Positions 2,336 to 57,812 of a DNA stretch of 64,000 bases are shown piece by piece. The notes under the pieces were generated by a model that saw only the letters and a program-made list of their open reading frames with translations, did no database searches and was not told the DNA's origin. The DNA comes from Thermoplasmata archaeon (lineage in GTDB: Archaea > Thermoplasmatota > SW-10-69-26 > JACQPN01 > JAJPHT01). The stretch's first letter is position 1, and every line of letters begins with the position of its first letter. The position numbers and the translations under genes were made by a program. The stretch is taken from the NCBI GenBank assembly GCA_034667685.1, contig JAXDQU010000008.1:24212-88211 (forward strand). The letters are read 5' to 3'.

Positions 2336-2400
2336 CGGGGCTCGGGGCTCTGGACTCGGGGCTCCGGAGCCCCGAGTCCTGAGTCCAGAGCCCCGAGCCC
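2336..2400. repeat. intergenic palindromic repeat, family A copy 1 (REP/MITE-like)
   Basis: near-perfect inverted repeat GGGGCTCTGGACTCGGGGCTCCGG/CCGGAGCCCCGAGTCC..AGAGCCCC centred on CCGG; four other copies in the window. Confidence 0.8.
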
Positions 2401-2420
2401 AAGCGCCCGGCGATGCCTTC

Positions 2421-2927
2421 ATGATGCAATCCCCGTCTCGCCGCGCCATGCAGAGCCCCGGCCACAGCAGCGAGTTCGAGACGGTGGACCCCGCGCCCCT
2501 GGCGCCCGAGACCACCGTGCCGGAGCTGGAGGCGCGGCTCTTCGACACCAGGCTCAGCATGTTCCAGCGCTATCGCGCGCTCTTCTCGCTGCGGCACGTG
2601 GGGACCGAGGACGCGATCCGCGTGATCGCCCGGGCGATGTTCGAGGACGAGAGCGCGCTGGTGCGCCACGAGGCGGCCTACGTGCTCGGGCAGCTCCAGG
2701 GCGCGAAGGCGATCCCGTTCCTCGCGCGCCAGCTGGAGGAGGACCCCTCGCCGATGGTGCGCCACGAGGCGGCCGAGGCGCTGGGCAACATGTGGGACCA
2801 GACGGAGAAGGTCATCCCGATCCTGGAGAAGGCGCGCCAGCACGACCCGGCGCGCGAGGTGCGCGAGAGCTGCGAGGTGGCGCTCGACAACATCGCGTAC
2901 CTGAAGGACCCGACCCAGTTCGACTGA
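2421..2927 (+). CDS. HEAT-repeat protein, half-size deoxyhypusine hydroxylase (DOHH)-like
   Basis: two His-Glu iron-ligand motifs in HEAT repeats (VRHEAAYVLGQL, VRHEAAEALGNM); strong similarity to the N-terminal half of eukaryotic DOHH (RYRALFSLR..AI, AIPFL, EVRESCEVAL). Confidence 0.75.
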   Translation: MMQSPSRRAMQSPGHSSEFETVDPAPLAPETTVPELEARLFDTRLSMFQRYRALFSLRHVGTEDAIRVIARAMFEDESALVRHEAAYVLGQLQGAKAIPFLARQLEEDPSPMVRHEAAEALGNMWDQTEKVIPILEKARQHDPAREVRESCEVALDNIAYLKDPTQFD

Positions 2928-2975
2928 TACTCTCTAACGAGAAACGAAAAGCGGCGCGCGCCCGTCGAAGCGCGC

Positions 2976-3443
2976 ATGATGGGACGCCCCCTCCTCGTCA
3001 TGCTGGCGCTCGCCGCGCTCCCCCTCGCCACGGCCGCGCCGCCCGAGGTGTACGCCGGCGAGGGGCCGCTCCACGGCAAGGCGTACTTCGACCCGCAGCT
3101 CACGTACGACGTCGCCTACACAGAGCCGGGCTCGACGGGCTGCGTCGCCCCGGTCTACCTCCAGTGCATCGTGGAGGGGCAGGTCACCGACATCAAGTGG
3201 ATCCGCATCGACATCGAGGGCAAGGGGAGCGCGGACTTCTTCGCCGACGCCGGCGCCAACACGCCCACCCTCGCCTACGGCTCGTGCGCCTCCACGCTGA
3301 CCTACGCGATGTGCATCTTCCCGCTCCGGCACGAGACGTGGGGCAATCTCCGCATGGTCGTCGACTCCACCAACGGCCAGGCGGGCACCGTCATCTCCGT
3401 CTACGCGGAGTCGGGCGCGACGCTCTTCGGGCAGATGCTGTAG
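2976..3443 (+). CDS. secreted hypothetical protein
   Basis: signal peptide MMGRPLLVMLALAALPLATAAP; protein-like composition. Confidence 0.6.
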   Translation: MMGRPLLVMLALAALPLATAAPPEVYAGEGPLHGKAYFDPQLTYDVAYTEPGSTGCVAPVYLQCIVEGQVTDIKWIRIDIEGKGSADFFADAGANTPTLAYGSCASTLTYAMCIFPLRHETWGNLRMVVDSTNGQAGTVISVYAESGATLFGQML

Positions 3444-3604
3444 GGTCACGCGAGGGAGCCGCAGTCCGAGCAGACCAGGCCGCGGCATTGGCCCATCTCG
3501 CAATCGGCGGGCAGGATCGGCGCACGACAGCAGCGCGAAAGCATCGGACGAAGGAAGCTGCCGCGCCATCTTGGGCGCGAACGGGGGGCCCCGCCGAATC
3601 TACC

Positions 3605-4576
3605 TCAGAACCCGCGCGTCCGGGCCCAGCCGTTGAGCGCCAGGAGCGTGCGCTTGGCGTCGGTCTCCGGCAGGGGCGCGAGCGCGTCGGCGGCGGCCTT
3701 GGCGTGCTCGTCGCGCAGCGCCTCGGCGGCGGCGAGCGCCCCGCACGCGCGCATGGCGTCCACCGCGGCGCGGACCTGCGCGTCGGTCGCGTCGTGCCGG
3801 CCCAGCGCGGCGCGGATCGTCTCGCGCTGACGTCCGTCGGCGCGGGCCAGCGCCTCCAGCACGAGGATGGTGCGCTTGCCGGCGCGCACGTCGCTGCCCC
3901 ACGGCTTGCCCATCTTCTCGCTGGGCGCCGTGACGTCGAGCAGGTCGTCGGCGATCTGGAACGCCATGCCGAACGCCTCGCCGAAGCGGTCCAGCGATTC
4001 GATGTGGGGCCGGCTTGCCCGGCGGTGCGCGAGCGCACCGCCGTGGCAAGCCGCCGCAAACAAGATGGCAGTCTTGCCGCGGATCATGTCGAGGTACGCC
4101 GCGACGGTGACGTCGTTCTCCCTCTCGAACGCGACGTCCATCGCCTGCCCCTCGCAGAGCCGGCGGATCGCGGTGGAGAGCAGGCGGCTCGCCTCCTGGT
4201 GCGCGGCCGGGTCGGGGATGCGCGCGAGCACCTCGAAGGCGCGCGCGAAGAGCACGTCGCCCGCGAGGATCGCCGTCGCCTCGTCCCACTTCGTGTGCAC
4301 CGTCTGGCGGCCGCGTCGCGTCGCGTCGCGGTCCATGATATCATCGTGCACGAGGCTGAAGTTGTGCACCAGCTCGACGGCCAGCGCGACGGGGAGCGCG
4401 TCGTCCGCGCTGCCCCCCGCGGCCTCGCACGCCAGGAGCGCCATGATCGGGCGCAGGCGCTTGCCGCCGGCCTCGGGGTACCACATGGTCGCGTCGTGCA
4501 GCGCCTGCGGCCGGATGCCGTCGAAGCACGATGGCAGGGCCTGGTCCACGACCTTCCGATGGCTTTCCAGATTCAA
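3605..4576 (-). CDS. idsA: geranylgeranyl diphosphate synthase (polyprenyl synthetase)
   Basis: two aspartate-rich motifs LVHDDIMD and QIADDLLD; GGKRLRP motif. Confidence 0.85.
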   Translation of the reverse strand: MNLESHRKVVDQALPSCFDGIRPQALHDATMWYPEAGGKRLRPIMALLACEAAGGSADDALPVALAVELVHNFSLVHDDIMDRDATRRGRQTVHTKWDEATAILAGDVLFARAFEVLARIPDPAAHQEASRLLSTAIRRLCEGQAMDVAFERENDVTVAAYLDMIRGKTAILFAAACHGGALAHRRASRPHIESLDRFGEAFGMAFQIADDLLDVTAPSEKMGKPWGSDVRAGKRTILVLEALARADGRQRETIRAALGRHDATDAQVRAAVDAMRACGALAAAEALRDEHAKAAADALAPLPETDAKRTLLALNGWARTRGF

Positions 4577-5937: not shown

Positions 5938-5999
5938 GCTGGTCGCGGCAAGCCGGCCCTCGCGTTTGAGCGTGTCGGACAAAGCGGAGGCATTCATGT

Positions 6000-7408: not shown

Positions 7409-7478
7409 ACGACCTCAGACCCCGGTGGCGGTATATGGAGGAAGCGGAAAAATCAGGCCGTGACCGGCCCGGTCCCTG

Positions 7479-7574
7479 CGCTTCGCATCGCCGCCAACAC
7501 GCGAGCACGCCATCACGCCAGCCCGACCGCGCTCGTGTGTTGGCGTGTCCGCGTGTTGGCGGCGATGCGAAGCG
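7479..7574. repeat. intergenic palindromic repeat, family B copy 1
   Basis: about 40-bp arms CGCTTCGCATCGCCGCCAACACGCGAGCACGCCA with a near-perfect reverse complement; related copy at 51772-51852. Confidence 0.7.
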
Positions 7575-7584
7575 ACGGCCAGCG

Positions 7585-8853: not shown

Positions 8854-9002
8854 GCGGCCGGATATGCTGGGGGCAGAAAGAATCAGCCGCCTCGGAGCGT
8901 TCGGCGCGCATGCGGCTCGTCAAGGTCGTCGCGTCGTGGAACCCCGGCGAGGGGGGCCATTGGCCCGTCAGCCTCACGTGGCACCTCGACCCTTGGGGGC
9001 GC

Positions 9003-9746
9003 GTGCGGCGCCTCGCCCTGGCCCTTGCCCTCGCTTTCCTTGCCGGCTGCGCCTCGGCGCCCGCGCCCGCCGCGAGGACGTGCGCGCCCGCCTCCACCGA
9101 GCGCGGCGGCGGGCAGGGCGTCTGCGCGATCACCACCGACGGCTGGATCCTCCAGGGCGCCGCGTGGAACCCCGACAACCCGAGCGCGCCCAGCGTGATG
9201 CTCGTCCACGGCCTCAACGAGGACCGGCACAGCTACGACGCGCTCGCCCACGCGCTCGCCGCGAAAGGATATCGCGTGCTCGCGTTCGACTCGCGCGGCA
9301 TGGGGCTCTCGACGAATCTCACCGACGGCTCCACGCGCACGCTGGCCTCCTTCAACCAGCAGGACGTCCTGGCGATGCCGCACGACATGGCGACGATGGG
9401 CGCCTCGTTCCAACCCACCGCCATCGTGGGCGCGAGCGTCGGCGCCAACGAGGCCATCGCATACGCCGCGCTCTCGCCGGGCGTCCGCACCGTCGTCCTC
9501 CTCTCGGCGGGCGAGAGCTACCAGGGCCTCGACGCGACCGCGCCCGCCGCGAAGTACGGCGGCTCCATCCTGTTCGTCGCCTCGCAGGGCGACACGTACG
9601 CCGCCGGCAGCGCGCAGGACCTCGCCTCGCGGCACCACGGCGAGCACCAGGTGGACGTCGTGGGCGGCAGCGCGCACGGGACGAACCTTCTCGCCGACCC
9701 CACGATCCAGGGCGCCGTGGTGGCGTGGCTGGGCCAGCACCGGTGA
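9003..9746 (+). CDS. alpha/beta-hydrolase lipoprotein
   Basis: GTG start gives lipoprotein signal VRRLALALALAFLAGC; GxSxG-like GASVG nucleophile elbow; alternative upstream ATG at 8910. Confidence 0.65.
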   Translation: MRRLALALALAFLAGCASAPAPAARTCAPASTERGGGQGVCAITTDGWILQGAAWNPDNPSAPSVMLVHGLNEDRHSYDALAHALAAKGYRVLAFDSRGMGLSTNLTDGSTRTLASFNQQDVLAMPHDMATMGASFQPTAIVGASVGANEAIAYAALSPGVRTVVLLSAGESYQGLDATAPAAKYGGSILFVASQGDTYAAGSAQDLASRHHGEHQVDVVGGSAHGTNLLADPTIQGAVVAWLGQHR

Positions 9747-9756
9747 TATCACGAAG

Positions 9757-9827
9757 GCTCGGGGCTCTGGACTCAGGACTCCGGGCTCCGGAGCCCTGAG
9801 CCTGGAGTCCAGAGCCCCGAGCCCTCG
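9757..9827. repeat. intergenic palindromic repeat, family A copy 2
   Basis: GGCTCGGGGCTCTGGACTCAGGACTCCGGGCTCCGGAGCCCTGAGCCTGGAGTCCAGAGCCCCGAGCCC. Confidence 0.8.
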
Positions 9828-9835
9828 ATAGGTTC

Positions 9836-11200
9836 ATGGCGGCGCCCCACTTCGGCAGCAGCATGGCGCGCGACGACGAGGAGGCGACCTTCGACGACCT
9901 GCCGCTCTCCGAGCGCGCGCGGGAGGCGGTGCACCGGCTGGGCTGGCGCGCGCCCACGCCGATCCAACGACTCGCCGTGCCGCAGCTCGCGATGGGGCGC
10001 GACGTCATCGGGCGCGCGCAGACCGGCAGCGGCAAGACCGCCGCGTTCGGCCTCGTGCTCACCGACCAGGTGAAGGCGCCCGGCGTCCAGGCGCTCGTGC
10101 TGGCGCCCACGCGCGAGCTGGTCGTGCAGATCGCGCGCGACCTCAACGCGCTCGCGGAAGGCGCGCCGTTCCGCGCGGTGCCCGTCTACGGCGGCGTGCC
10201 CTACGACGAGCAGATCGCCGCGCTCGCCGACCCGGCGACGACGTGCATCGTCGCGACGACCGGACGGCTCCTCGACCTCCTCGCGCGCCGCCAGGTCCTC
10301 CTCGACCAGGTGCGCTTCGTCGTGCTCGACGAGGCCGACCGCATGCTGGACCTCGGCTTCCTCCCCGAAGTCGAGCGCGTCCTCAAACTCATCCCCGGCG
10401 GGCGGCAGACCGCGCTGTTCACGGCGACGATGCCCAGGAAGGTCGCGCTCCTCGCGCACCAGTACATGGCCCACCCGCGCGAGGTCGAGGTCGGCCCCCA
10501 AACGCCGCTCACCGCGGAGCACTACCGCGTGGACGTCGCGAGCACGCACCGCCACGCCGCGCTCGCCGCGCTCCTCGCCAAGGAGAAGCCCGCCCGCTGC
10601 CTCGTCTTCGTCCGCACGCGCGAAGGCGCCGCCAAGCTCGCGCGCGAGCTGGTCGAACAAGGCGTCCTCGCCACGCCGCTCCACGGCGACCTCACGCAGC
10701 CCCAGCGCGAGCGCGTCGTCGCGTCGCTGCGCGAGGGCCGCACCGCGCTCGTCGTCGCCACCGACGTCGCCGCGCGCGGCCTCGACTTCCCCGCCATCTC
10801 GCACGTCGTCAACTTCGAGGTGCCCGAGGAGGCCGACCAGTACGTCCACCGCGCCGGCAGGACCGCGCGCGCCGGCCGCGAAGGGCGCGTCTTCACGCTC
10901 GTCACCGAGAACGACGGGCGCGCCCTCGAAGCCGTCCAGCGCGCCGCCAAGGTCGCGCTCCAGCCCTACGCGCTATCATTCTTGAGCGCGCAGGGCGACG
11001 TCGTGGACACCGCGACGACGCCGCTGACGCCCCCCAAGATGGAGATGCCCGGCGGCAACGCCCGCGGCGCGCGCCGCCGCGCCAAGCCCACGCCGCCCAA
11101 CCCGCTCAGCAAGCTCGTCGAGGAGCCCGAGCCGGAGCCCGAAGCGAAGGGACCGGAGAACGACCTTCCCCCCTCGCGGCGCGAGCGACGACGGACGTGA
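9836..11200 (+). CDS. DEAD-box ATP-dependent RNA helicase
   Basis: Q-motif, Walker A AQTGSGKT, DEAD box VLDEADRM, SAT-like and HRAGRTAR motifs; basic C-terminal tail. Confidence 0.9.
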   Translation: MAAPHFGSSMARDDEEATFDDLPLSERAREAVHRLGWRAPTPIQRLAVPQLAMGRDVIGRAQTGSGKTAAFGLVLTDQVKAPGVQALVLAPTRELVVQIARDLNALAEGAPFRAVPVYGGVPYDEQIAALADPATTCIVATTGRLLDLLARRQVLLDQVRFVVLDEADRMLDLGFLPEVERVLKLIPGGRQTALFTATMPRKVALLAHQYMAHPREVEVGPQTPLTAEHYRVDVASTHRHAALAALLAKEKPARCLVFVRTREGAAKLARELVEQGVLATPLHGDLTQPQRERVVASLREGRTALVVATDVAARGLDFPAISHVVNFEVPEEADQYVHRAGRTARAGREGRVFTLVTENDGRALEAVQRAAKVALQPYALSFLSAQGDVVDTATTPLTPPKMEMPGGNARGARRRAKPTPPNPLSKLVEEPEPEPEAKGPENDLPPSRRERRRT

Positions 11201-11349
11201 AACGTTCGCGTGAAACGTGGGACAGGATCGACGGCTGCTGCAGGATTCCCTACCGGCCCTCGTGCGGTTGCCTGTGGTAACTGTTCTTGTCACGAGTTTG
11301 CTCCGCAATCCATTTCCTCCAATGGTTGTTAGGTCGGGTCCGTTCACCC

Positions 11350-12486: not shown

Positions 12487-12509
12487 CGCGGGCGCGGCGC
12501 CGGGCCCGT

Positions 12510-15989: not shown

Positions 15990-16063
15990 GGGCGCGTAGG
16001 CTAGCTTGGATAGACTTCGGGCCTCCGGAGCCTGAGACTTGGGTTCGAATCCCAACGCGTCCG
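15990..16063 (+). tRNA. tRNA, probably Arg (anticodon CCG)
   Basis: acceptor GGGCGCG/CGCGTCC with G3:U70; anticodon stem CGGGC/GCCTG with loop CTCCGGA; T-arm TTGGG TTCGAAT CCCAA; D-arm slightly irregular. Confidence 0.6.
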
Positions 16064-16294
16064 CTTCTCGCTTCGCTCGAAGCGTCCACGTCGTCTCGGC
16101 ACCGAGACGGCTCGCTTCGCTCGCCTCGTGCGACGACGTGCCTGCAGGCACTCCGTCGCACGCTCGGCGCCGATCCCAACGCGTCCGCTCACCCTTCTTC
16201 TCGTCTCGGCCGATGCCTTTCCCCGCGGCCGGGACAACCGAAGCTTGATATTCGAACATGGGGACACGAACACAGTTTCTGGAGGCTCGGAGAC

Positions 16295-17834: not shown

Positions 17835-17835
17835 C

Positions 17836-18361: not shown

Positions 18362-18730
18362 ATCCACCCCGCCTGGACGCGGGGCGAAAGGCACCGGCTA
18401 GGCTGGGGGGCCAGGCCTCCCCTGTCACCTGACACGGCCTTCATGCAGGAGCTGACACCCCGGGGCGGCGGCCCCAGGGCGGCCGGGAGCCCGGAACCGA
18501 CAATGAGACTTCGTCCCTCGTGGTCCGGGGCGCAAAGCACGCGCAAGCGGAAGCTTGCCGGGCGTGCCTTGCCACGGGAACCGGGTCAGGCGCGGAAGCG
18601 AGCAGCCTCACCGTGGACCAAGGACGTTCGTGGGGTCGCGGGGTCGAGAGAGTTCCGGGGTCACTCCCGTCCGTCGCTGACCGTCCACCCGGGAGGTCGA
18701 TGCCCGTCAAAACGCGTCCAAGCGGGGGGT
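18362..18730 (+). ncRNA. signal recognition particle RNA (7S/SRP RNA), boundaries approximate
   Basis: helix-8 motif GGUCAGGCGCGGAAGCGAGCAGCC at 18584-18607 matches the universal SRP RNA motif GGUCAGGUCCGGAAGGAAGCAGCC with compensatory changes and a GGAA tetraloop; 5' CCCCGCCUGGACGCG pairs with 3' CGCGUCCAAGCGGGG as terminal helix; followed by a hairpin CTGGGGGCTTTGCCCCCAG. Confidence 0.6.
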
Positions 18731-18755: not shown

Positions 18756-19265
18756 TCACCCGCACAGGTAGTCCACGAATTTTGATAGCGGGAGGCCCTC
18801 GTTCCAGCGCAGGACGTAGTTGCCTTTCTCGGTCTTGCCGACCTTCGGGAGGCGGTCGTAGAGGACGGCGATGCGCGGGGGGAGGTTCTCGGTGGGGAGC
18901 GTGTGGACGCGCCACGAGTCGCCGCGGACGCCCTTCCGCCGGAACGCGTAGAGCGGGATGACGCTGGCGCGGCTGCATTCGGCGCGCATGGCCTCGGCCT
19001 GCTCCTGGTTGCGCTTGCTGCCGTCGGCGAAGTGGATGACGTCGGCGCTGGCGCTCTTGACCTCGATGGGGAAGCTGACGTCGCCGCGGAGCGCGACGAG
19101 GTCGACGCCCAGCGAGCCCGCGCCGCGCACCACGAGGAAGGGGCGGTGGCGCGCCTTGAGGTAGGCTGCCTGCTCGTCGGGCGAGCACGTCTTGATCGAC
19201 CGGCGGATCGCCTCCTCGTCGCCCGAGAGGATCCCTTTCAGCTCGCGCTCGTAGGTGCTGCTCAT
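18756..19265 (-). CDS. hjc: Holliday junction resolvase Hjc-like PD-(D/E)xK nuclease
   Basis: YERELKGIL ... VVRGAGSLGVDLVAL ... FPIEVKS catalytic core typical of archaeal Hjc, with an internal insertion and a C-terminal extension. Confidence 0.55.
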   Translation of the reverse strand: MSSTYERELKGILSGDEEAIRRSIKTCSPDEQAAYLKARHRPFLVVRGAGSLGVDLVALRGDVSFPIEVKSASADVIHFADGSKRNQEQAEAMRAECSRASVIPLYAFRRKGVRGDSWRVHTLPTENLPPRIAVLYDRLPKVGKTEKGNYVLRWNEGLPLSKFVDYLCG

Positions 19266-35757: not shown

Positions 35758-35765
35758 TGACGGGT

Positions 35766-35837
35766 CGCCTCCGGCGGGAAAGGGCGGAATCTCAGGATCT
35801 CGGAAATCTCCGCCTGATTCTGAGATTCGGAGATTCC
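35766..35837. repeat. intergenic imperfect palindrome, family E
   Basis: GGGAAAGGGCGGAATCTCAGGATCTCGGAAATCTCC / GGAGATTCCGTCCTTTCCC with internal GGAATCTC repeats. Confidence 0.55.
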
Positions 35838-35916
35838 GTCCTTTCCCACGCGGAGCGCGCCGGGGCCTCACCGCCCGTGCGCAAAACGTGATACGGCACC
35901 CCCATTTCGCGCGCAC

Positions 35917-38343: not shown

Positions 38344-38451
38344 GACGCAGAGCCAACCCCGTCTTTGTGTTCGGCCTGGACCGCGCTCGGAATCGGAAGA
38401 GGAATCGGAATCGGACAGAACCCTTTTGACCTGGACTCCGGTGGGGTCTTC

Positions 38452-39711
38452 ATGACCCCGGTGAAGCGTTTCCCCGCCGCGACCCGCCTGCGCCACATGG
38501 AGGCGCCCATCCGCGACGTCCTGGGCCCGGCGCGCGAGCTGGAGCGCCAGGGGCACAAGGTCCTCAAGCTCAACATCGGCGACCCGGACGCCTATGATTT
38601 CGTCCCGCCCGTTCCGCTCTCCGACGCGCTGCGCGACGCCGCGACCCTCGGACGCTACGCAGACAGCGAAGGGCAGCCGGACGTGCGCGTGGCCATCGCC
38701 AAGTACGAGAAGGAGATGCGCGGGCTGGACCTGAAGCCGGAAGATATCATCTTCACCGCGGGCGTCAGCGAGGCGCTATCGTTCCTCTTCGGCGCGCTCC
38801 TGGAGCCGGGCGACGAGATCCTCGTGCCGGGCCCCGCCTACCCGCAGTACCTGGGCGTCACGTCGTTCTACGGCGCGGTGCCCGTCGAGTACCCCAGCAC
38901 GCCGCAGAACGGCTGGCTCCCCCGGATCGAGGAGATCGCCGCGCGCGTCACGCCGCGCACCAAGGCCATCGCGGTCATCTCGCCCAACAACCCGACCGGG
39001 TGCGTCTACCCCAAGCCGCTGCTCGCGCAGATCGCCAAGCTCGCCCGCGAGCGCAACCTCGTGCTCATCTCGGACGACATCTACAGCGAGCTGGTCTTCG
39101 AAGGCGAGGTCGCCCCCTCGCTCGCCCAGGAGCCCGGCCCGTGCATCATCCTCAACGGCTTCAGCAAGAATTGGCTCGTGCCCGGCTGGCGCGCGGGCTA
39201 CGTCGCGTTCAAGGACGAGGACGGCTCGCTCGCTGATATCAAAGAAGGCGTGCTCAAGCAGGCGCGCTCCCGCCTCTCGGCGAGCTACCCCATCCAGATC
39301 GCGCTGGCCCACGCGCTCCAGGCGCACGCGGCCCACGTGCCCGACCTGCGCCGCCGCCTGCGCGAGCGCGCCGAGATCGTCGTGAAGCGCGTCGCCGAGA
39401 CGGACAACCTCGCGTTGGCCCGGCCGCAGGGCGCCTTCTACGCGCTCGTGGGCATCCGCGGCCTCTACCCCGAGCAGGTCATGGAGGGGGACGCCGCGCC
39501 GGCGAAGCCGTGGAAGCCGCACAACGACTTCCCTACCGACAAGGAGTGGGTCCTCGGGCTGCTGCGCGAGGAGAAGGTGCTCGTCGTGCACGGCAGCGGC
39601 TTCGGCCAGAGCGCCGCGGGCCACTTCCGCACCGTGATCCTGCCCCCGCCCGAGACGCTCCACGAGGCGTTCGACCGCATCATCCGCTTCGCGAACAAGC
39701 ACGCCAAGTAG
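38452..39711 (+). CDS. PLP-dependent aminotransferase class I/II (aspartate/alanine aminotransferase-like)
   Basis: PLP-lysine motif SFSKNWLVPGWRAGY; ISPNNPTG motif. Confidence 0.85.
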   Translation: MTPVKRFPAATRLRHMEAPIRDVLGPARELERQGHKVLKLNIGDPDAYDFVPPVPLSDALRDAATLGRYADSEGQPDVRVAIAKYEKEMRGLDLKPEDIIFTAGVSEALSFLFGALLEPGDEILVPGPAYPQYLGVTSFYGAVPVEYPSTPQNGWLPRIEEIAARVTPRTKAIAVISPNNPTGCVYPKPLLAQIAKLARERNLVLISDDIYSELVFEGEVAPSLAQEPGPCIILNGFSKNWLVPGWRAGYVAFKDEDGSLADIKEGVLKQARSRLSASYPIQIALAHALQAHAAHVPDLRRRLRERAEIVVKRVAETDNLALARPQGAFYALVGIRGLYPEQVMEGDAAPAKPWKPHNDFPTDKEWVLGLLREEKVLVVHGSGFGQSAAGHFRTVILPPPETLHEAFDRIIRFANKHAK

Positions 39712-42247: not shown

Positions 42248-42349
42248 CCCGCCCGACGTCAACACGAAGCCACGAAGGCACGAAAACACGAAGCTCCCAG
42301 GCTCTTCGTGCCTTCGTGGCTTCGTGCCTTCGTGTTGACGTCGGGCGGA
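42248..42349. repeat. intergenic palindromic repeat, family C (CACGAAG heptad arms)
   Basis: CCGCCCGACGTCAACACGAAGCCACGAAGGCACGAA ... TTCGTGCCTTCGTGGCTTCGTGCCTTCGTGTTGACGTCGGGCGG; sits in a divergent promoter region. Confidence 0.7.
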
Positions 42350-42386: not shown

Positions 42387-44204
42387 ATGCCCCGCCCGCT
42401 CGTCGTCGCCGAAGGCATTCACAAGGCCATCGCGGGGCGCGCGATCCTCGACGGCGCGTCGTTCCAGGTCGAGGCGGGCGAGCGCGTGGCGCTGGTGGGA
42501 CCCAACGGGACGGGCAAGACGACGCTCCTCCAGATGGTCGCGGGCCGCAGCGCGCCCGACGAGGGGCAGCTCAGCCTCGCGCCGCGCACGCTCGTCGCCT
42601 ACTTCGAGCAGCACCCCAAGCTGGAGAAGGACGCCACGGGCCGCGACGTGCTGGCCGCCGGCGCGCAGGTCCCGCCCGAGATCGCGGCGGAGCTCGCGGC
42701 GCTGGAGGCGCGCATGGCCGACCCCGCGCTCTACGAGTCGGGCGAGAGCGACGCCGTCTTCGCGCGCTACGGCGAGCTCCAGCGCGAGGCCGCGCAGGCG
42801 AAGGCCGCCGCCGCGCCCGAGGCCGCGGAGGCGCTGGCCGAGTCGCTGGGCTTCGCGCCCGACGACCTCGCCAAGAAGGTCTCCGTGCTATCAGGCGGCG
42901 AGCGCACGCGGCTGCTCCTGGCGCGCACGCTGGCCGAGGCGCAGCCCGGCGGCCTGCTGATCCTCGACGAGCCCACGAACCACCTCGACGTCGAGACGGT
43001 CGAGTGGCTGGAGGAGTGGGCCGAGGGCCACCAGGGCACGATCCTCATGGTGAGCCACGACCGCGCGTTCCTCGACAACCTCGCCACGCGCGTGCTCTGG
43101 CTCCACGAGGGGCGGATCGCATCGTACCCGGGCAACTATTCGGACTTCGAGCGGGCGCGGGACGAGGACCAGCAGCGTCTCGCCCAGCAGCGCGAGCGGG
43201 AGGTCAAGGAGGAGGCGCGCCAGAAGGAGGTCATCCAGCAGTTCCGCCAGATGAAGCGCTTCAACGGCCAGATGGCGAGCCGGCTGACGCGCCTCGCGAA
43301 ATACCGCAGCGCCATCGAGCGCACGCCCGATCCGCTCATGCAGCGCGTGGCGATGGCTGTCGCGTTCCCCGAGGCGTTCAAGTCCTCCAAGGAGGTCGTG
43401 CGCGTGCGCGGCCTCGGGAAGAAGCTGGGCGATCGCGTGCTCTTCTACGGGCTCGATCTGGACCTCGCGAAGGGCGAGCGCATGGGGCTCATCGGCGCGA
43501 ACGGCGCGGGGAAGACGACGCTCCTGCGCATCCTCGTGGGCAAGGACCGCAAGGAGATCGGCACGGTCGAGGTCGCGCCGGGCGTGAAGGGCGCCTACTA
43601 CGCGCAGGGCCACGAGCAATTGGACGAGAAGCGCTCGCTGGTCGACGAGGTGCGCGGCGCGCGTCCCGGCCTCGCGGAGGAGGACGGGCGCGCCCTGCTG
43701 GGCCGGTTCGGCTTCCGCAGCCCGCAGGACCCGACCCGGAAGGTGCAATCGCTCTCGGGCGGCGAGCGCAGCCGCCTCGCGCTGCTCAAGACCATCCTCG
43801 CGCCCTCCAACCTGCTGATCCTCGACGAGCCCACCAACCACCTCGACCTGGACAGCGTGCAGGCGCTCGTGGGCGCGCTCAACGCCTACCAGGGCGCGCT
43901 GCTCGTGGTGAGCCACGACCGCTGGTTCCTCGACAGCGTGGTCGACAAGGTCGCGCTCCTGGCCCGCGGCCAGGCCAAGGTCTTCACGGGCGACCTCACG
44001 GCGGCCCGGACGCAGATGGCCATGGAAGCGTTCGCGGGCGACCGGACCACGCGCTACGTGGTGCGCAAGGGCTTCAAGGACTTCGACGCCGGCACGCGCC
44101 ACGCCGCGGGCAGCGCGCTGGAGCTCACCGAGGCCGAGGTGCAGGCCAAGCGCCTCTACCGCACGGCGATCGAGATGGGGTGGATGGAGGCCGACGCGGG
44201 CTAG
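42387..44204 (+). CDS. ABC-F family ATPase (tandem ABC domains; EttA/Uup-like)
   Basis: two Walker A (GPNGTGKTT, GANGAGKTT), two LSGGE signatures, inter-domain linker. Confidence 0.9.
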   Translation: MPRPLVVAEGIHKAIAGRAILDGASFQVEAGERVALVGPNGTGKTTLLQMVAGRSAPDEGQLSLAPRTLVAYFEQHPKLEKDATGRDVLAAGAQVPPEIAAELAALEARMADPALYESGESDAVFARYGELQREAAQAKAAAAPEAAEALAESLGFAPDDLAKKVSVLSGGERTRLLLARTLAEAQPGGLLILDEPTNHLDVETVEWLEEWAEGHQGTILMVSHDRAFLDNLATRVLWLHEGRIASYPGNYSDFERARDEDQQRLAQQREREVKEEARQKEVIQQFRQMKRFNGQMASRLTRLAKYRSAIERTPDPLMQRVAMAVAFPEAFKSSKEVVRVRGLGKKLGDRVLFYGLDLDLAKGERMGLIGANGAGKTTLLRILVGKDRKEIGTVEVAPGVKGAYYAQGHEQLDEKRSLVDEVRGARPGLAEEDGRALLGRFGFRSPQDPTRKVQSLSGGERSRLALLKTILAPSNLLILDEPTNHLDLDSVQALVGALNAYQGALLVVSHDRWFLDSVVDKVALLARGQAKVFTGDLTAARTQMAMEAFAGDRTTRYVVRKGFKDFDAGTRHAAGSALELTEAEVQAKRLYRTAIEMGWMEADAG

Positions 44205-44277
44205 GGCTGGCGCTGGCGCTGGGGCTGGGGTCCCCCAGCCCCAGCCCGGCGGAGCCGCGGGGCCGCTCCCACCACCC

Positions 44278-47631: not shown

Positions 47632-47644
47632 GCGCTCGTCCCTC

Positions 47645-47917: not shown

Positions 47918-47935
47918 CCGTCGCCCTCGCGCGGC

Positions 47936-48157: not shown

Positions 48158-48217
48158 CGGGCCTCCATCGCCTCCAGGCTATTCACGCCTTTTGGGACGC
48201 GGCTGCGCGGGCGTCCG

Positions 48218-50770: not shown

Positions 50771-51082
50771 GCAAGCGAACGATGCCCACGGCCGGCTTCA
50801 AGGCGTCGGCACGAGAGGCGCCGCGGAGGACGAGCCGACAAGGCTCACCGTTTCGATATCGCAGGTCGGCAACACGGAGGTTGCCGATCGAATAGCGGGG
50901 GGTTGATTTGAACAACCGATCTACGGGTTATGAGCCCGTCGGGATTTCCTGGCTACCCCACCCCGCTAGAGTGGTGCGCTCCGGCGGATGCCGGGGCAGG
51001 AGCGGCCAATCGCCGTCCCCCGGATAAGGTTTCGGGTTCGCGGACCGCGAGCGTTGATGCCCACGGCGCAGGATGCGCGCGC

Positions 51083-51760: not shown

Positions 51761-51771
51761 CACTGCCTGAG

Positions 51772-51852
51772 GCGCTTCGCTTCCCGCCAACACGCGAACA
51801 CGCCAACACGCCGCGTGTTGGCGTGTTCGCGTGTTGGCGGGAAGCGAAGCGC
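51772..51852. repeat. intergenic palindromic repeat, family B copy 2
   Basis: GCGCTTCGCTTCCCGCCAACACGCGAACACGCCAACACGCC | GCGTGTTGGCGTGTTCGCGTGTTGGCGGGAAGCGAAGCGC, a perfect hairpin. Confidence 0.75.
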
Positions 51853-51883
51853 TGCAAGCGACAAGGAGGATAGGAAAGGCGCC

Positions 51884-53284: not shown

Positions 53285-53305
53285 GAACCTGCGCGATGCG
53301 GCGCT

Positions 53306-53371
53306 CTCGGGCTCTGGACTCGGGACTCAGGGCTCCGGAGCCCCGAGTCCAGAGTCCAGAGCCCCGAGCCC
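53306..53371. repeat. intergenic palindromic repeat, family A copy 3
   Basis: CTCGGGCTCTGGACTCGGGACTCAGGGCTCCGGAGCCCCGAGTCCAGAGTCCAGAGCCCCGAGCCC; overlaps and provides the 3' end and stop of the creatininase-family gene. Confidence 0.8.
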
Positions 53372-54058
53372 AAGCAACACGACGAGCCGCGCCTCGATGT
53401 GCGCGTTCGCCCGCTCGCCAAGCTCCCGCGACGCGAGCGTGGGGTCGCCCATGACGCCCTCGGGGAAGTGGCGCTCGGCGTGCGCTTCCACGAGGAATTC
53501 CGGGAAGCGGACCTGGTGCGGCTTGCCGCGCCCCTTCACGAGATCGGGCCGGATCGCGAGCATGCGGGAGGTCTCCAGCGCGCCGGCGTGGCCGTCCCAG
53601 CGCGGGACGCCGGGCGCCTCGAAGTCGGAGAGCAGCTCGTAGTCGGACAGGACGAAGATCCGCATCGTCGGATCGGATTCGAGGTGCTCCTCGGCAGCGA
53701 GCTTGAGCGCGCGCATGTGGGCGCCGCCGGCGTGGCCGCTGACGAACGCGACCGTGCGGAGGCCGTGGCGCTGGCAGTCGGCGAGGACGTCGCGGGCGAT
53801 GGCGCGCAGCGTGTCGAAGCGCAGGCTGAACGAGCCGGGGAAGTTGCGCGTGCTGCTGCAGTTGCCATAGGCGAGCAGCGGGGCCACGAGCGCGCCCGTC
53901 CGCGCCGCGACGCGCTCGCACGTGTGCGTGGCCTGGATGCTGTCCGTGTCGAGGGGCAGGTGCGGGCCGTGCTCCTCGACGATGCCCACGGGGACGAGGA
54001 GCGGGGGCTTGGGCGAGAGCGCGGCGAACGCGGGGCTGGTCAACTCTCCGAGGCGCAC
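53327..54058 (-). CDS. creatininase-family amidohydrolase (archaeal ArfB-like)
   Basis: PVGIVEEHGPHLPLDTD and GHAGALETS metal-binding motifs; GTG start assumed; the C-terminal about 14 aa are encoded by the family A repeat. Confidence 0.65.
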   Translation of the reverse strand: MRLGELTSPAFAALSPKPPLLVPVGIVEEHGPHLPLDTDSIQATHTCERVAARTGALVAPLLAYGNCSSTRNFPGSFSLRFDTLRAIARDVLADCQRHGLRTVAFVSGHAGGAHMRALKLAAEEHLESDPTMRIFVLSDYELLSDFEAPGVPRWDGHAGALETSRMLAIRPDLVKGRGKPHQVRFPEFLVEAHAERHFPEGVMGDPTLASRELGERANAHIEARLVVLLGLGALDSGLGAPEP

Positions 54059-54112
54059 GCGCGGGCAGGGCAAGGCGCGCGGATATTTGTGGCGCTTCGC
54101 GCATCGCGCCGC

Positions 54113-54703
54113 GTGGAGAAGCGGGACCTCGCCATCGTGCTCGCGGGCGCGCTGCTGGTGGCGGGCGCGACGGCGTACGCGGGCGCGCAAGGCCCCTCGA
54201 CGCACCGCTATCAGCTCACCTACGCGGCGACCTCCTTCGTGATCCCGCAGGGCACGGAGCAACGCACCCTCCCGGGGCCGGGCTATCGCTCCGGCTACTC
54301 GATCGCGACGAGCGACTGGAACGTGTCGAGCTACCACGCCGAGTTCAACGTCACGCCCGCGGGCGCGTTCGTGGCCGGCGCGAGCCTCCACGCGAAGCTC
54401 ACCACGCCCAACGGGACGACGATCGAGAAGGACGGCACGGTCGGGCCAGCCGGCGGCGTCATCCACGTCGCGTTCGACGTGCCCGTCGCGCCCCTGCCCG
54501 CGCCCCGCATCGTCGACGCCTCCTCGCAGAAGGACGCGCTCGCGATGCTGGAGCAGGGCGATCGCGTGAACGCCGGGAACTGGACCGTGGAGCTCGACTT
54601 CAGCCCGGGCACGCCCGAGGGCCCCGAGCCCGCCATCGGGTTCTACGAGGCGCTCGTCGTCTGGATCGGGGGCGCGGACGCGCTCGTGCCCGCGGCGAAA
54701 TGA
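54113..54703 (+). CDS. secreted/membrane-anchored hypothetical protein
   Basis: GTG start; signal anchor [20 protein letters not shown]; beta-rich extracellular-type sequence. Confidence 0.5.
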
Positions 54704-54731
54704 TAAGAACCCCCGCCACGCTCGCCGCCCC

Positions 54732-55223
54732 ATGGCCCCGCCCGCGCCGAAGGTCGGCATCATCATGGGCAGCAAGACCGACTGGGAGACGCTGCGCCTC
54801 GCCAGCGAGGTGCTCCAGGGGCTCGGCGTGCCGCACGAGACGAAGGTCGTCTCGGCGCACCGCACGCCGGACCTTCTCTTCGAGTACGCGGCCAGCGCGG
54901 AGGGGCGCGGCATCCAGGTCATCATCGCGGGCGCCGGCGGCGCGGCGCACCTGCCCGGGATGTGCGCGAGCAAGACGACGCTCCCCGTGCTGGGCGTGCC
55001 GGTGCAGAGCAAGGCGCTCAGCGGCCTCGACTCGCTTCTCTCCATCGTGCAGATGCCCAAGGGCGTCCCCGTGGGCACGCTCGCCATCGGCACCGCGGGC
55101 GCGTCCAACGCCGCGCTGCTGGCCGCGCAGATCCTCGCGCTCCACGACGAGAAGCTCCGCGAGAAGCTCAAGCTGATGCGCCAGCAGGAGCGCGACCGCG
55201 TCATGGGAGAGAAGCTCGATTGA
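54732..55223 (+). CDS. purE: N5-carboxyaminoimidazole ribonucleotide mutase
   Basis: [14 protein letters not shown] and [10 protein letters not shown] signatures. Confidence 0.9.
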
Positions 55224-56365
55224 GCCTCGCGCCCGGCGCCACGCTCGGCATCCTGGGCGGAGGCCAGCTCGGGCGCATGATCGCGTTCGAGGCGCACCGC
55301 ATGGGCTACCGCGTCGCCATCCTCGACCCCGACCCGGACGGACCCGGGGCGCAGGTGGCGGACGACGTCGTCCTGGGCAAGTGGACCGACGCGAAGGCGG
55401 CCCTGGAGCTGGCGCGCCGCGCGGACGTCGTCACCGTCGAGACGGAGCACATCCCCTTCGAGGTCCTCGACGAGGTCGAGAAGGCCGGCGGCAACCTGCT
55501 CCCGCGCGCCGCGGTCCTGCGCACGATCCAGAACCGCCTGCGCCAGAAGGAGTTCCTCGCGCGGCACGGCTTCCCGCAGCCCGCGTTCGCGCACGTCACC
55601 GACGAGGCCTCGCTGCGCGCCGCGATATCAAACGTGGGCGCGCCCGCCGTGCTCAAGTCGCTCACCGGCGGCTACGACGGCAAGGGGCAGAGCCGCGCGC
55701 TCCAGGCGAGCGAGGCCGACGAGGCGTGGGCGCGCATCGGGCGCCAGCCGTGCATCGTCGAGTCGTTCGTCCCCTTCCGCGCGGAGGTCAGCGTCGTGCT
55801 CGCGCGCGGGCTCGACGGCCGCGTCGCGTACTACCCGCTCGCCGAGAACGTCCACCGCCACGGCATCCTGCACACGACGCGCGCGCCCGCCCGCGTCGAC
55901 CCCGCCGTCGCGCGCGAGGCGCAGCGGCTCGCGAAGGACGTCGCCAACGCGCTCGACCACGTGGGCGTCATGGCCGTCGAGATGTTCCTGCTGCCCGACG
56001 ACTCGCTCCAGATCAACGAGATCGCGCCGCGCGTCCACAACTCGGGCCACTACACGTACGGCGCGTGCGCCACCTCGCAGTTCGAGCAGCACCTCCGCGC
56101 CATCTGCGGCCAGCCGCTGGGCGACACGACGCTCCTGCGCCCCGCCGCCATGCTCAACCTGCTGGGCGATGCCTGGGCGCGCCGCGAGCCCGACTGGACG
56201 CGCGTCTTCGCCACGCCCGGCGCCGCGCTGCACCTCTACGGCAAGGCCGAGGCGCGCCCCGGCCGCAAGATGGGGCACGTGACCGTGACGGCCGAGCACA
56301 CGGACGACGCGCTCGCCAAGTGCGAGGCCATCCACGCCGCGCTGATGACGGACGCGGAGCTTTAG
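55220..56365 (+). CDS. purK: N5-carboxyaminoimidazole ribonucleotide synthase
   Basis: TTG start overlaps the purE stop (TTGA); ATP-grasp motifs ([27 protein letters not shown]). Confidence 0.85.
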
Positions 56366-56465
56366 TTCCAGAGCCCCGAGTCCGGAGTCCTGAGCCCGGA
56401 GCCTAACCTCCCAAGTGGGGTGCGAGGGCTCTGGGCTCAAGACTCCGGACTCGGGGCTCTGGAAC
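56366..56465. repeat. intergenic palindromic repeat, family A copy 4 (extended variant)
   Basis: GTTCCAGAGCCCCGAGTCCGGAGTCCTGAGCCCGGAGCC ... GGCTCTGGGCTCAAGACTCCGGACTCGGGGCTCTGGAAC with a 23-nt central loop. Confidence 0.8.
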
Positions 56466-56502
56466 GACCGTTGGGCGCCCGCCCGCCCTTTCCACAATCC
56501 TC

Positions 56503-57096
56503 TTGGAGCCGGGCCTCGCATCGTGGGCCGTGGACAAGATCACGTTGGATCGCGCGGCGTTCAAGGCGCTCGCGTCCGACACGCGGCTGGACATCCTGAA
56601 GGCGCTCGACGCGCGCCAGAAGACCGTGACCGAGCTGGCGCGCGAGCTGGACCTCAACAAGGCCACCGTCTTCGAGCACCTGGAGAAGCTCGCCGAGGTG
56701 GGCCTGATCCAGAAGATCGAGGAGGACGTCGAGCGAAAGTGGGTCTACTGGCAGCTCTCGTGGAAGGGGCGCCGGCTCCTGCATCCGGAGGCGATCACGT
56801 TCTCGCTCCTGCTCTCGACCGCGCTGGGCACGCTGCTGACCGGCGCCGCGGCGCTCTGGATCTGGTGGAAGAGCGCCATCCTGCCCACGAGCGGCGCGGA
56901 GGGCGCCTCCCAGCCCACCGGGGCCGCCGCGCCGCGCGCGTTCGCCGCCCCCGCGCCCGAGCCCCCCGTCGCCGCGGCGCCCGCGCACGATCCGACCTAC
57001 CTGTGGGTCGCGGCGGCGCTGGGCGCGCTGCTCCTCGTCCTGATCCTCGGCGCGTGGTGGGTCAAGGCCCGCGCGCGCAAGCTCAGCGCGTCGTGA
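56503..57096 (+). CDS. membrane-tethered ArsR-type wHTH regulator
   Basis: N-terminal HTH (ALASDTRLDILKALDARQKTVTELARELDLNKATVFEHLEKLAEVGLI), then two to three TM helices and a Pro/Ala-rich spacer. Confidence 0.6.
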   Translation: MEPGLASWAVDKITLDRAAFKALASDTRLDILKALDARQKTVTELARELDLNKATVFEHLEKLAEVGLIQKIEEDVERKWVYWQLSWKGRRLLHPEAITFSLLLSTALGTLLTGAAALWIWWKSAILPTSGAEGASQPTGAAAPRAFAAPAPEPPVAAAPAHDPTYLWVAAALGALLLVLILGAWWVKARARKLSAS

Positions 57097-57682
57097 GGTC
57101 GCCCTGGTCCAGGATGATGACGCCCGTGCGCAGGGAGTCGACTTCCTCCTGGGTGAGCGCCCGACGCTCGACCTTCTCGGCGAGGATGGCGCTGTTGCCG
57201 AACGGGTCGTCGATGATGAGCGTGAAGGGGATCTCGCCCGCGAGCATCTTCTCGTAGCGCATGAGGTACTCCTGGAGCAGGGCGACCTTCTCCGGGTCCT
57301 CGCCGTGGAACTCCAGCGCGGTGAGCAGCACGTCCTTCGCGCGGTCCAGGACGCCCTCGACGTTGGAGACGTAGCTCTCGGAGAGCGGCGAGGGCTCGGC
57401 CGTGAACCCCATCTCCGGGATGCGGATCGTGCCCGAGTTGCTCCGGATCACGCGGATCGTGAGGTCCTCCTCCCCGTTCGCGTGCAGCGTCAGCCGCAGC
57501 GGGTCCTTCTGGCCGAGGATCATGAAGTCCGCGTGCCGGAAGCCGCACGCGCCGCAGCGCATCGTCGTCTCCAGCGCGTCGCCGAAGTACGGGACGTTGA
57601 CGGACGTGCTCAGCAGCGTCAGCTGGCCCACGACGCGGCACATCGGACAGGGCGTGTTGACCGGGACCGCGGATGCGCTCAC
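57083..57682 (-). CDS. ZPR1-type zinc-finger protein
   Basis: CPMC ... CGACGF C4 zinc finger, then a ZPR1-like beta-rich domain; GTG start assumed. Confidence 0.55.
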   Translation of the reverse strand: MSASAVPVNTPCPMCRVVGQLTLLSTSVNVPYFGDALETTMRCGACGFRHADFMILGQKDPLRLTLHANGEEDLTIRVIRSNSGTIRIPEMGFTAEPSPLSESYVSNVEGVLDRAKDVLLTALEFHGEDPEKVALLQEYLMRYEKMLAGEIPFTLIIDDPFGNSAILAEKVERRALTQEEVDSLRTGVIILDQGDLTTR

Positions 57683-57726
57683 GTGGCGCGCGAGCCCTCC
57701 TTTTCGCTTAATGGTTCTGTGGATCC

Positions 57727-57812
57727 GGCCTCGGGCTCGGGGCTCTGGACTCAGGACTCTGGGCTCCGGAGCCCTGAGTCCAGAGTCCTGAGTCCAGAGC
57801 CCCTCGGCGCGC
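57727..57812. repeat. intergenic palindromic repeat, family A copy 5
   Basis: GGCCTCGGGCTCGGGGCTCTGGACTCAGGACTCTGGGCTCCGGAGCCCTGAGTCCAGAGTCCTGAGTCCAGAGCCCC. Confidence 0.8.

What the first reader, a model, noticed from the sequence alone, without database searches (positions are those of the whole stretch)
2336..57812. Five-copy family of about 65-100 bp near-perfect palindromic intergenic repeats (family A, GGGGCTCTGGACTCGGGGCTCCGG core)
Copies lie at 2336-2400, 9757-9827, 53306-53371, 56366-56465 and 57727-57812, all intergenic. Each forms a long GC-rich hairpin centred on CCGG, with small copy-specific differences (a TGAGTCC duplication, an extended loop in copy 4). They occur between divergent, convergent and tandem genes, so they are not simply terminators. 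One copy supplies the last about 14 codons and the stop of the creatininase-family gene. In several frames the repeat translates to GSGLWTQDSGLRSPESRAPSP, which artificially extends spurious ORFs. This looks like a REP/MITE-like element family not described for archaea, as far as I know.
Basis: seen in the sequence. Interest (0 to 1): 0.6.

Follow-up and report, generated by a model that had tools for sequence, protein, structure and literature searches.

The report
Dispersed heptamer-built palindromes in an archaeon
An uncultured Thermoplasmata archaeon carries many copies of small hairpin-forming repeats between its genes, each built from two mirrored runs of a 7-base unit; they are recent insertions missing from close relatives, and they resemble little-studied bacterial repeats rather than anything wholly new.

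Summary
Five copies lie at the stated places, and a sixth lies in the same genome just outside the window. Independent assemblies from a second sample reproduce copies 2 to 5 over their whole length.

Each copy is a pair of inverted tandem arrays of the heptamer GGRCTCN. The unit order is conserved: GGGCTCG, GGGCTCT, one to three GGACTCN units, then GGGCTCC at a CCGG centre. Copy 4 has the arrays back-to-back around a 22-nt spacer. The two arms differ by whole-unit insertions or deletions. Predicted RNA hairpins are very stable (-59 to -94 kcal/mol).

Orthologous sites in relatives are empty (A3, A5, and B1 of a second family) or hold unrelated hairpins (A1, A5). The copies are therefore recent gains. 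One replaced the C-terminus of a creatininase-family protein.

About 78 kb of this genome holds 14 such hairpins, in families with 6-, 7- or 8-nt units. I found no target-site duplication, no GTAG or CGTC tag and no transposase, so this is not a REP or MITE member in the strict sense.

The closest precedent is the convergent GGGAATC heptamer array pairs of Xanthomonas. Best reading: a non-autonomous dispersed palindrome family shaped by slippage. How it spreads is unknown.

The parts
2338..2400 (.). Family A copy 1. Left array is GGGCTCG-GGGCTCT-GGACTCG-GGGCTCC. The right array is the same plus one extra GGACTCA unit. It lies between the divergent CLC channel gene (451-2316, -) and HEAT-repeat gene (2448-2927, +).
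9756..9824 (.). Family A copy 2. It starts 10 nt after the stop of an alpha/beta hydrolase gene (8910-9746, +) and ends 12 nt before the start of a DEAD-box helicase gene (9836-11200, +).
53309..53371 (.). Family A copy 3. It supplies the last 14 codons and the stop of the creatininase-family gene (53327-54043, -). It ends 52 nt upstream of the amino-acid permease start as called by JGI (53257).
56366..56464 (.). Family A copy 4, the inside-out form. Reverse-complement array 56366-56403, 22-nt spacer 56404-56425, forward array 56426-56464. It begins directly after the PurK stop (56363-56365) and ends 39 nt before the ArsR-type regulator gene (56503-57096, +).
57727..57802 (.). Family A copy 5. 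It lies between the divergent ZPR1-like gene (57083-57643, -) and SepF gene (57876-58421, +). In effect it is an insertion of about 80 bp between two conserved promoter-like AT-rich boxes.
7479..7574 (.). Same class, family B copy 1. Arms carry the 8-nt unit NAACACGC inside a non-periodic outer stem GCGCTTCGC. It lies between the epimerase and RibD_C genes, which are 5 bp apart in a relative.
51765..51859 (.). Same class, family B copy 2. Arms are 47 nt and 94% complementary. It lies between the convergent NUDIX and permease genes.
42249..42348 (.). Same class, family C copy 1 (8-nt unit CACGAAGN). Two further copies lie in the same genome outside the window (L256:3514-3597 and L257:8088-8154).
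35761..35862 (.). Same class, family D (unit of about 8 nt, GGAATCTC), immediately after the stop of a GCD14-type tRNA methyltransferase gene.
44198..44247 (.). Same class but weaker: a hairpin of the 6-nt unit GGGCTG/CCCCAG overlapping the stop of an ABC-F gene. Its fold z-score is only -2.3.

Best explanation
Family A is a lineage-specific, non-coding, dispersed palindromic repeat of an uncultured Thermoplasmata archaeon.

Structure. Each copy consists of two inverted tandem arrays of four to six heptamers (GGRCTC plus one spacer base) with a conserved unit order.

Origin of copies. New copies arise when a pre-formed element is placed into intergenic DNA, so the family behaves as a non-autonomous mobile element. 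The enzyme is unknown. I infer a hairpin- or single-strand-specific transposase or recombinase acting in trans.

Later change. Once in place, the arrays change by replication slippage of whole units. Because the arms are periodic, the hairpin still pairs after such a slip, in a shifted register.

Likely effects. The elements are probably selfish or neutral. When transcribed they would form very stable hairpins in untranslated and intercistronic RNA. By analogy with bacterial REPs, such hairpins could protect upstream mRNA or insulate neighbouring transcripts. The elements also remodel gene ends and spacers.

Shown here: multiple copies, conserved unit order, absence from orthologous sites, whole-unit indels, fold stability, intergenic location, and replacement of a protein C-terminus.

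Inferred only: the mode of mobilisation, transcription of the elements, and any effect on RNA.
For: There are six copies in about 78 kb of one genome, all with the same unit order including the spacer bases G then T in the two outer units. No array of two or more units occurs anywhere else in the window.

Empty orthologous sites:
- A3 is absent from L246, a relative with 87% identical creatininase and the same creatininase-to-permease gene order.
- A5 is absent from L250 and L251 (spacer of 157-158 bp against 232 bp in the window). The flanking TTAATGG and TTTTGAAA boxes are conserved.
- B1 is absent from L253, where the two genes are 5 bp apart against 176 bp in the window.

The creatininase tail GLGALDSGLGAPEP is unique to this genome among the 19 sequences aligned.

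Families B and C are also multi-copy and share non-periodic parts, which argues for copying rather than independent growth at each site.

The two arms of a copy differ by whole units, and centre-anchored pairing puts the mismatches at positions 8, 15, 22 and 29.

Predicted folds are -59 to -94 kcal/mol with z-scores of -7 to -12.

Contigs from independent assemblies end at or inside these hairpins, as expected for multi-copy palindromes.
Against: No transposase, integrase or HUH-domain protein appears among the roughly 50 window proteins scanned against Pfam, nor in the precomputed Pfam annotations of the flanking loci. There is no target-site duplication and no conserved flanking tag. I could not count copies genome-wide.

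Two sites (A1 and A5) carry unrelated hairpins in a relative. That could mean selection for a hairpin at those sites rather than parasitism.

One genome holds at least six different unit families with the same architecture. That is hard to reconcile with one sequence-specific transposase per family.
Confidence: 0.55

Rival explanations
1. The hairpins are host-functional structured elements kept by selection for structure rather than sequence. Candidate roles are transcript 3'-end or intercistronic hairpins that stabilise mRNA, stop read-through or insulate neighbouring promoters.
For: Many start at or within a few bases of a stop codon: A4 at 0 nt, A2 at 10 nt, D at 3 nt, B2 at 4 nt, E overlapping the stop, and the sixth copy abutting the SNF2 stop. 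In the relative genome, the A1 and A5 sites hold different hairpins of similar size. The folds are extremely stable.
Against: Two other relatives have an empty A5 site, and one has an empty A3 site. No pair shows a compensatory change within the element. Mismatches follow unit slips instead. Two of the five copies lie between divergent genes, where no transcript ends. No U-tract follows any copy. One copy overwrote a protein's C-terminus.
Confidence: 0.2
2. Each copy grew independently in place. Polymerase slippage expanded a heptamer simple-sequence repeat, and fold-back or template switching mirrored it into a palindrome. No movement between sites is involved.
For: Heptamer repeats are the over-represented long simple-sequence-repeat class in many prokaryotes, which has been attributed to slippage (PMC4679880 and PMC4692102, citing Mrazek 2007). 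Whole-unit indels are seen between arms. Related genomes hold hairpins with 8-, 10- and 12-nt units at other sites.
Against: The same unit order and the same spacer bases recur at six loci. Families B and C share non-periodic stem bases between copies. The window has no short or one-sided precursor arrays. Sites are either empty or full.
Confidence: 0.15
3. The arrays are DNA-level binding platforms. A protein would recognise the GGRCTC hexamer at 7-bp spacing, so that three units span two helical turns, for example a regulator or a chromatin protein.
For: The hexamer core is nearly invariant, with about 2% deviation across some 48 units, while the seventh base varies.
Against: Much of the spacer mismatch between arms looks like a register shift after unit indels: A1 and A5 fit this exactly, A2 and A3 less cleanly. 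Outside the arrays, GGACTC and GAGTCC are below the median for hexamers of the same composition. The neighbouring genes share no common function. Other families use unrelated units.
Confidence: 0.05

Closest known systems
Paired (convergent) GGGAATC heptamer arrays of Xanthomonas campestris and X. axonopodis (Rehm et al. 2015, PMC4692102)
   Same: Both are intergenic tandem arrays of a G-rich heptamer, typically about four units long. Most occur as two arrays on opposite strands close together, able to form a stem-loop. Array length varies between genomes. Function and origin are unknown, with slippage invoked.
   Different: This case is in an archaeon, with a different unit (GGRCTCN) and a fixed unit order. 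The arrays abut at a CCGG centre. Sites are not conserved in relatives, whereas 83% are conserved between the two Xanthomonas genomes (those may be closer relatives). G-quadruplex potential is doubtful because half the units are GGACTC. Several other unit families of 6 and 8 nt share the architecture in the same genome.
REP / BIME / REPIN elements of Proteobacteria, mobilised by RAYT transposases (PMC2817692, PMC3733652, PMC3116915)
   Same: Both are GC-rich extragenic palindromes present in many copies. They lie between genes in any orientation, often just downstream of ORFs. Head-to-head and tail-to-tail pairings occur. They are occasionally intragenic. They act as mRNA hairpins.
   Different: REPs are 20-40 bp with stems of 5-13 bp and a GT(A/G)G or CGTC head, and GTAG REPs are linked to a RAYT gene. 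Family A is 63-99 bp, has no such tag, has periodic arms, and no RAYT was seen in the DNA available.
Archaeal MITEs and PATEs (Sulfolobus MITEs, PMC3718332; Haloquadratum palindrome-associated transposable elements, PMC3119063)
   Same: Both are short non-autonomous repeats in archaeal intergenic DNA, with presence/absence differences between strains.
   Different: As I recall (not checked in those papers), these elements derive from identifiable IS elements (terminal inverted repeats plus target-site duplication, or IS200/IS605-type ends) and are usually longer than 100 bp with a non-repetitive interior. Family A has no interior, no duplication and no known parent.
Short tandemly repeated heptamers of cyanobacteria and TAACTGA repeats of Beggiatoaceae (PMC4679880)
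   Same: Both are intergenic heptamer direct repeats of two to six or more units. Their phylogenetic distribution is patchy, and relatives show shorter spacers without the repeats.
   Different: Those arrays are almost always one-sided (one indirect repeat among 170 sets) and are oriented relative to the downstream start codon. Family A copies are always paired and inverted.

Membership tests
REP / REPIN | Short imperfect palindrome of 20-40 bp (stem 5-13 bp) | tested here: not met
   Copies are 63-99 bp with arms of 28-39 nt. Definition taken from PMC3733652 and PMC2817692.
REP / REPIN | Conserved unpaired GT(A/G)G (or CGTC) tetranucleotide at one end | tested here: not met
   The bases next to the ten array ends are GCGCCG, GCGCTT, CACGAA, TATCGA, CTCTC, TTGCTT, GGCCTC, GCCGAG and so on. 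No GTAG or CGTC is present.
REP / REPIN | Extragenic and multi-copy | tested here: met
   There are six copies in about 78 kb, all between genes. One overlaps the last 14 codons of a gene. The genome-wide count is not available.
REP / REPIN | Cognate RAYT (IS200/IS605-type Y1 transposase) gene flanked by the repeats | tested here: inconclusive
   No transposase domain appears among about 50 window proteins scanned against Pfam, nor in the precomputed Pfam annotations of the flanking loci. The rest of the genome could not be searched.
MITE | Terminal inverted repeats | tested here: met
   This is met only trivially, because the whole element is one inverted repeat.
MITE | Target-site duplication flanking each copy | tested here: not met
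   No direct repeat is shared by the two flanks of any copy. At the A5 site, filled and empty alleles differ by the element without any duplicated bases.
MITE | A parent IS with matching ends in the same or a related genome | not testable with these tools
The specific central pattern found nothing in the metagenome collection.
Paired heptamer simple-sequence-repeat arrays (Xanthomonas type) | Intergenic tandem arrays of a 7-nt unit, about four or more units | tested here: met
   Each arm has four to six units of GGRCTCN.
Paired heptamer simple-sequence-repeat arrays (Xanthomonas type) | Two arrays close together on opposite strands (inverted pair) | tested here: met
   All six copies are inverted pairs: five convergent and one divergent.
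Paired heptamer simple-sequence-repeat arrays (Xanthomonas type) | G-tract in every unit, giving G-quadruplex potential | not tested
   GGGCTC units carry GGG but GGACTC units do not. No quadruplex prediction was run.
Paired heptamer simple-sequence-repeat arrays (Xanthomonas type) | The same site occupied in related species, with the type preserved | tested here: not met
   A3, A5 and B1 are absent at orthologous sites in relatives with 81-90% protein identity. These relatives may be more distant than the Xanthomonas pair.
Intrinsic terminator | GC-rich hairpin followed by a U-tract, downstream of a gene | tested here: not met
   No run of four or more T follows any copy on either strand. Two copies lie between divergent genes.

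The most novel reading that the evidence does not exclude
This Thermoplasmata lineage may carry a previously unrecognised class of archaeal mobile DNA, which I call periodic-arm palindromes. These are interior-less hairpin elements whose arms are arrays of a 6-12-nt unit. At least six unit families coexist in one genome. They would be spread by a structure-specific rather than sequence-specific enzyme, or generated by a unit-adding process, that is not yet identified. They turn over fast enough to differ completely between genomes whose proteins are about 80-90% identical.
Probability: 0.15. Interest if true: 0.75.

Novelty: new variant of a known kind. Interest (0 to 1): 0.45.

Why it matters
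If the reading holds, it extends REP-like small palindromic repeats, so far studied almost only in bacteria, to a soil Thermoplasmata lineage. It also shows a distinctive construction from short tandem units, which makes the hairpin tolerant of slippage.

The practical consequences are immediate. These elements break metagenome assemblies: four JGI contigs end at or inside them. They lengthen spurious ORFs and alter real gene ends. They may split operons.

They also offer a tractable case for asking how heptamer repeats arise and spread. That question has been open since heptamers were found to be the over-represented long simple-sequence repeat in prokaryotes.

Tried and rejected
1. Repeat-mediated inversion. 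The block from creatininase to PurK is inverted relative to the permease gene when compared with the relative L121, and the window breakpoints coincide with A3 and A4. However, L246 already has the window's gene order without A3. So the inversion does not depend on the repeats.

2. A free seventh base as evidence for hexamer-binding protein arrays. Centre-anchored pairing gives mismatches exactly every 7 nt. Unit decomposition shows that, in A1 and A5, this is a register shift caused by a one-unit difference between the arms. A2 and A3 fit less cleanly.

3. Known RNA families. Nothing reaches Rfam gathering thresholds at any copy. A relaxed search gives only sub-threshold, both-strand matches to eukaryotic miRNA precursors, which reflect a generic long hairpin.

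4. Genome-collection scan with GGRCTC x3. Hits were mostly bacterial: coding repeats in Streptomyces, and intergenic arrays in Acidobacteriota, Gemmatimonadota and Lysobacterales. No listed record title named an archaeon. The scan is uninformative about the family's range.

5. Metagenome scan with the specific central palindrome. It gave 0 hits. The viral collection also gave 0 hits.

6. Target-site duplications and conserved flanking tags. None were found.

7. Assembly artefact. Rejected, because separate assemblies from a second sample reproduce A2 to A5.


Full report
**Source organism.** The window is 72% G+C. It carries an archaeal SRP RNA at 18391-18703. Its proteins have best matches labelled Candidatus Thermoplasmatota or Thermoplasmata archaeon. 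The region is 100% identical over the 14.5 kb compared to JGI metagenome contig 3300044737 Ga0467038_0000241. Contigs from a second sample, 3300044807, also cover it.

**The observation.** The two-unit motif GGRCTCNGGRCTC occurs 32 times against 0.2 expected from shuffles. Every match is inside the five copies, so the window has no stray or one-sided arrays. Tandem Repeats Finder reports period-7 arrays on both arms of each copy, and the inverted-repeat search reports the palindromes. Predicted RNA folds are -59 to -94 kcal/mol with z-scores of -7 to -12. Copies A2, A3, A4 and A5 are reproduced in the second sample's assemblies: one mismatch over the 5.3 kb holding A3 and A4, and the same sequence at A2 and A5 in the stretches compared. 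They are therefore not assembly artefacts. Four JGI contigs nevertheless end at or inside such hairpins: two at A5, one in B2 and one in B1. This fits repeated palindromes that break assembly graphs.

**Anatomy.** Breaking each arm into units gives one architecture. Reading from the outside to the centre, it is GGGCTCG, GGGCTCT, one to three GGACTCN units, GGGCTCC, and then the CCGG centre.
- Four window copies have the two arrays pointing at each other with no loop.
- Copy 4 has the same arrays pointing away from each other, around a 22-nt spacer.
- The two arms of a copy differ by whole units. For example, A1 and A5 each have one extra GGACTCA unit in the right arm.
- When arms are paired from the centre, mismatches fall at positions 8, 15, 22 and 29. 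For A1 and A5 this is the register shift expected after a one-unit slip.

The periodic construction therefore lets the hairpin survive slippage. I saw no compensatory base changes inside the element.

**Gene context.** The gene map rests on third-position G+C, JGI gene calls and Pfam.
- A1 lies between the divergent CLC channel and HEAT-repeat genes.
- A2 lies between a hydrolase gene and a DEAD-box helicase gene, in tandem, starting 10 nt after the stop and ending 12 nt before the start.
- A3 lies at the 3' end of the creatininase-family gene and upstream of a permease gene, in tandem.
- A4 starts directly after the PurK stop and lies upstream of an ArsR-type regulator gene, in tandem.
- A5 lies between the divergent ZPR1-like and SepF genes.

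No family A copy in the window lies between convergent genes, and none is followed by a T-run. No transposase or integrase domain was found in the proteins scanned.

**More of the same class.** The window also holds hairpins with periodic arms built from other units:
- NAACACGC at 7479-7574 and 51765-51859.
- CACGAAGN at 42249-42348.
- GGAATCTC at 35761-35862.
- GGGCTG at 44198-44247.

Fetching about 14 kb of the same genome beyond both ends of the window added four more:
- A sixth family A copy abutting the stop of an SNF2 helicase gene (L257:9433-9495).
- Two more CACGAAG copies that align with the window copy.
- A 54-nt-arm hairpin of the unit ACCCGAGA.

That makes 14 such hairpins in about 78 kb, six of them family A. 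Extrapolating to a whole genome is inference only.

**Comparison with relatives.**
- A3 site. L246 has 87% identical creatininase and the same gene order. Its spacer is 53 bp with no repeat, and its protein ends in a normal C-terminus. The window protein's last 14 residues (GLGALDSGLGAPEP) are repeat-encoded and unique among the 19 sequences aligned.
- A5 site. L250 and L251 have 82-83% identical SepF. Their ZPR1-SepF spacers are 157-158 bp and align with the window on both sides of an extra segment of about 80 bp that is A5. L248 has 90% identical SepF. At the same point it carries a different insert of about 160 bp, with a hairpin of the 12-nt unit GTCACGTGACCG.
- B1 site. In L253 the epimerase and RibD_C genes are 5 bp apart, against 176 bp in the window.
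- A1 site. L253 holds an unrelated, non-periodic hairpin of similar size.

The relative genome has its own periodic hairpins, with 8-, 10- and 12-nt units, at other sites. The elements are thus gained and replaced quickly, and the families differ between genomes whose proteins are about 80-90% identical.

**Wider distribution.**
- The specific central palindrome was absent from the metagenome collection.
- A one-arm pattern was absent from the viral collection.
In the contigs inspected, nearly all hits were one-sided arrays of GGGCTCT and GGACTCT. Only one, L188, had an inverted pair of at least three units per arm, and that pair was inside-out.

**Interpretation.** Several results point to copying of a pre-formed element into new intergenic sites, followed by unit slippage:
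- The same unit order and spacer bases recur at six loci.
- Families B and C share non-periodic parts between copies.
- Orthologous sites are either full or empty.
- One copy overwrote a protein's C-terminus.

The mobilising activity is unknown. With no target-site duplication and a pure hairpin structure, a single-strand or hairpin-specific enzyme is the most natural guess, but that is inference. Selection for a hairpin function cannot be excluded, because the A1 and A5 sites hold other hairpins in a relative and many copies start at stop codons. Against it are the empty sites, the lack of covariation and the copies between divergent genes. Independent growth in place is unlikely given the shared unit order and the absence of precursor arrays.

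**Relation to known systems.** Family A fails the REP definition on size and on the GTAG/CGTC head. It fails the MITE definition on target-site duplication. Its closest precedent is the GGGAATC heptamer arrays of Xanthomonas. There, 70-75 pairs per genome are convergent arrays able to form stem-loops. Heptamers are also known to be the over-represented long simple-sequence repeat in prokaryotic intergenic DNA. MITE-like elements are already known in archaea. Two literature searches on REP-type and heptamer repeats in archaea turned up no description of this architecture in an archaeon. I therefore rate it a new variant of a known kind, of moderate interest.

Noticed in passing
window 7479-7574, 51765-51859, 42249-42348, 35761-35862, 44198-44247; L256:3514-3597, L256:6437-6555, L257:8088-8154: There are at least five further families of intergenic hairpins whose arms are tandem arrays of 6- or 8-nt units (NAACACGC, CACGAAGN, GGAATCTC, GGGCTG, ACCCGAGA). 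Families B and C are themselves multi-copy. In total there are 14 periodic-arm hairpins in about 78 kb.
   Followed up: partly
L121:10726-10794, L248:9790-9845, L253:11457-11543, L253:9591-9678: The related genome (GCA_021325135.1 / JGI 3300005529) has its own periodic hairpins with units of 10 nt (CGTGCACGCC), 12 nt (GTCACGTGACCG) and 8 nt (CGAACCNN, CCGAATCT). Several units in both genomes contain CACG or CGTG.
   Followed up: partly
window 53327-56365 compared with L121:7727-10723: The block creatininase - 204-aa protein - PurE - PurK is inverted relative to the permease gene when compared with a relative. Two arrangements exist among close relatives: creatininase next to permease, or creatininase next to NMD3.
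   Followed up: yes
window 57809-57830, 51828, 7541: Four JGI contigs from two samples end at or inside these hairpins (at A5, in B2 and in B1). The elements break short-read metagenome assemblies.
   Followed up: yes
L126-L245 (metagenome contigs, apparently mostly soil/rhizosphere), e.g. L158, L138, L171: One-sided tandem arrays of GGGCTCT and GGACTCT are common in metagenome contigs. They are often adjacent to arrays of other heptamers (AGACCCC, GGAACCC, CAGAACA and others). Records in the genome scan that carry this motif are mostly Acidobacteriota, Gemmatimonadota and Lysobacterales.
   Followed up: partly
window 58523-59077 and 59081-59626: Two tandem TATA-binding-protein genes lie just downstream of SepF. 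The relative's 10 kb downstream of SepF shows only one.
   Followed up: no
window 7409-7478: Next to B1, the spacer contains an AT-rich, promoter-like stretch (GGTATATGGAGGAAGCGGAAAAATCAGG) that is absent from the relative, where the two genes are 5 bp apart. The insertion may have split an operon.
   Followed up: no
window 16127-16162: A 36-bp palindrome (CGTGCGACGACGTGCCTGCAGGCACTCCGTCGCACG) lies about 60 nt downstream of tRNA-Arg (15990-16064). It is not periodic.
   Followed up: no
window 38387-38415: A one-sided TCGGAA x4.8 hexamer array lies at the very start of the aminotransferase ORF (38365-39711).
   Followed up: no
window 18756-19265: An Hjc Holliday-junction resolvase gene lies next to the SRP RNA gene. 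Hjc-type enzymes cut four-way junctions such as extruded cruciforms, but I found no link to the repeats.
   Followed up: no
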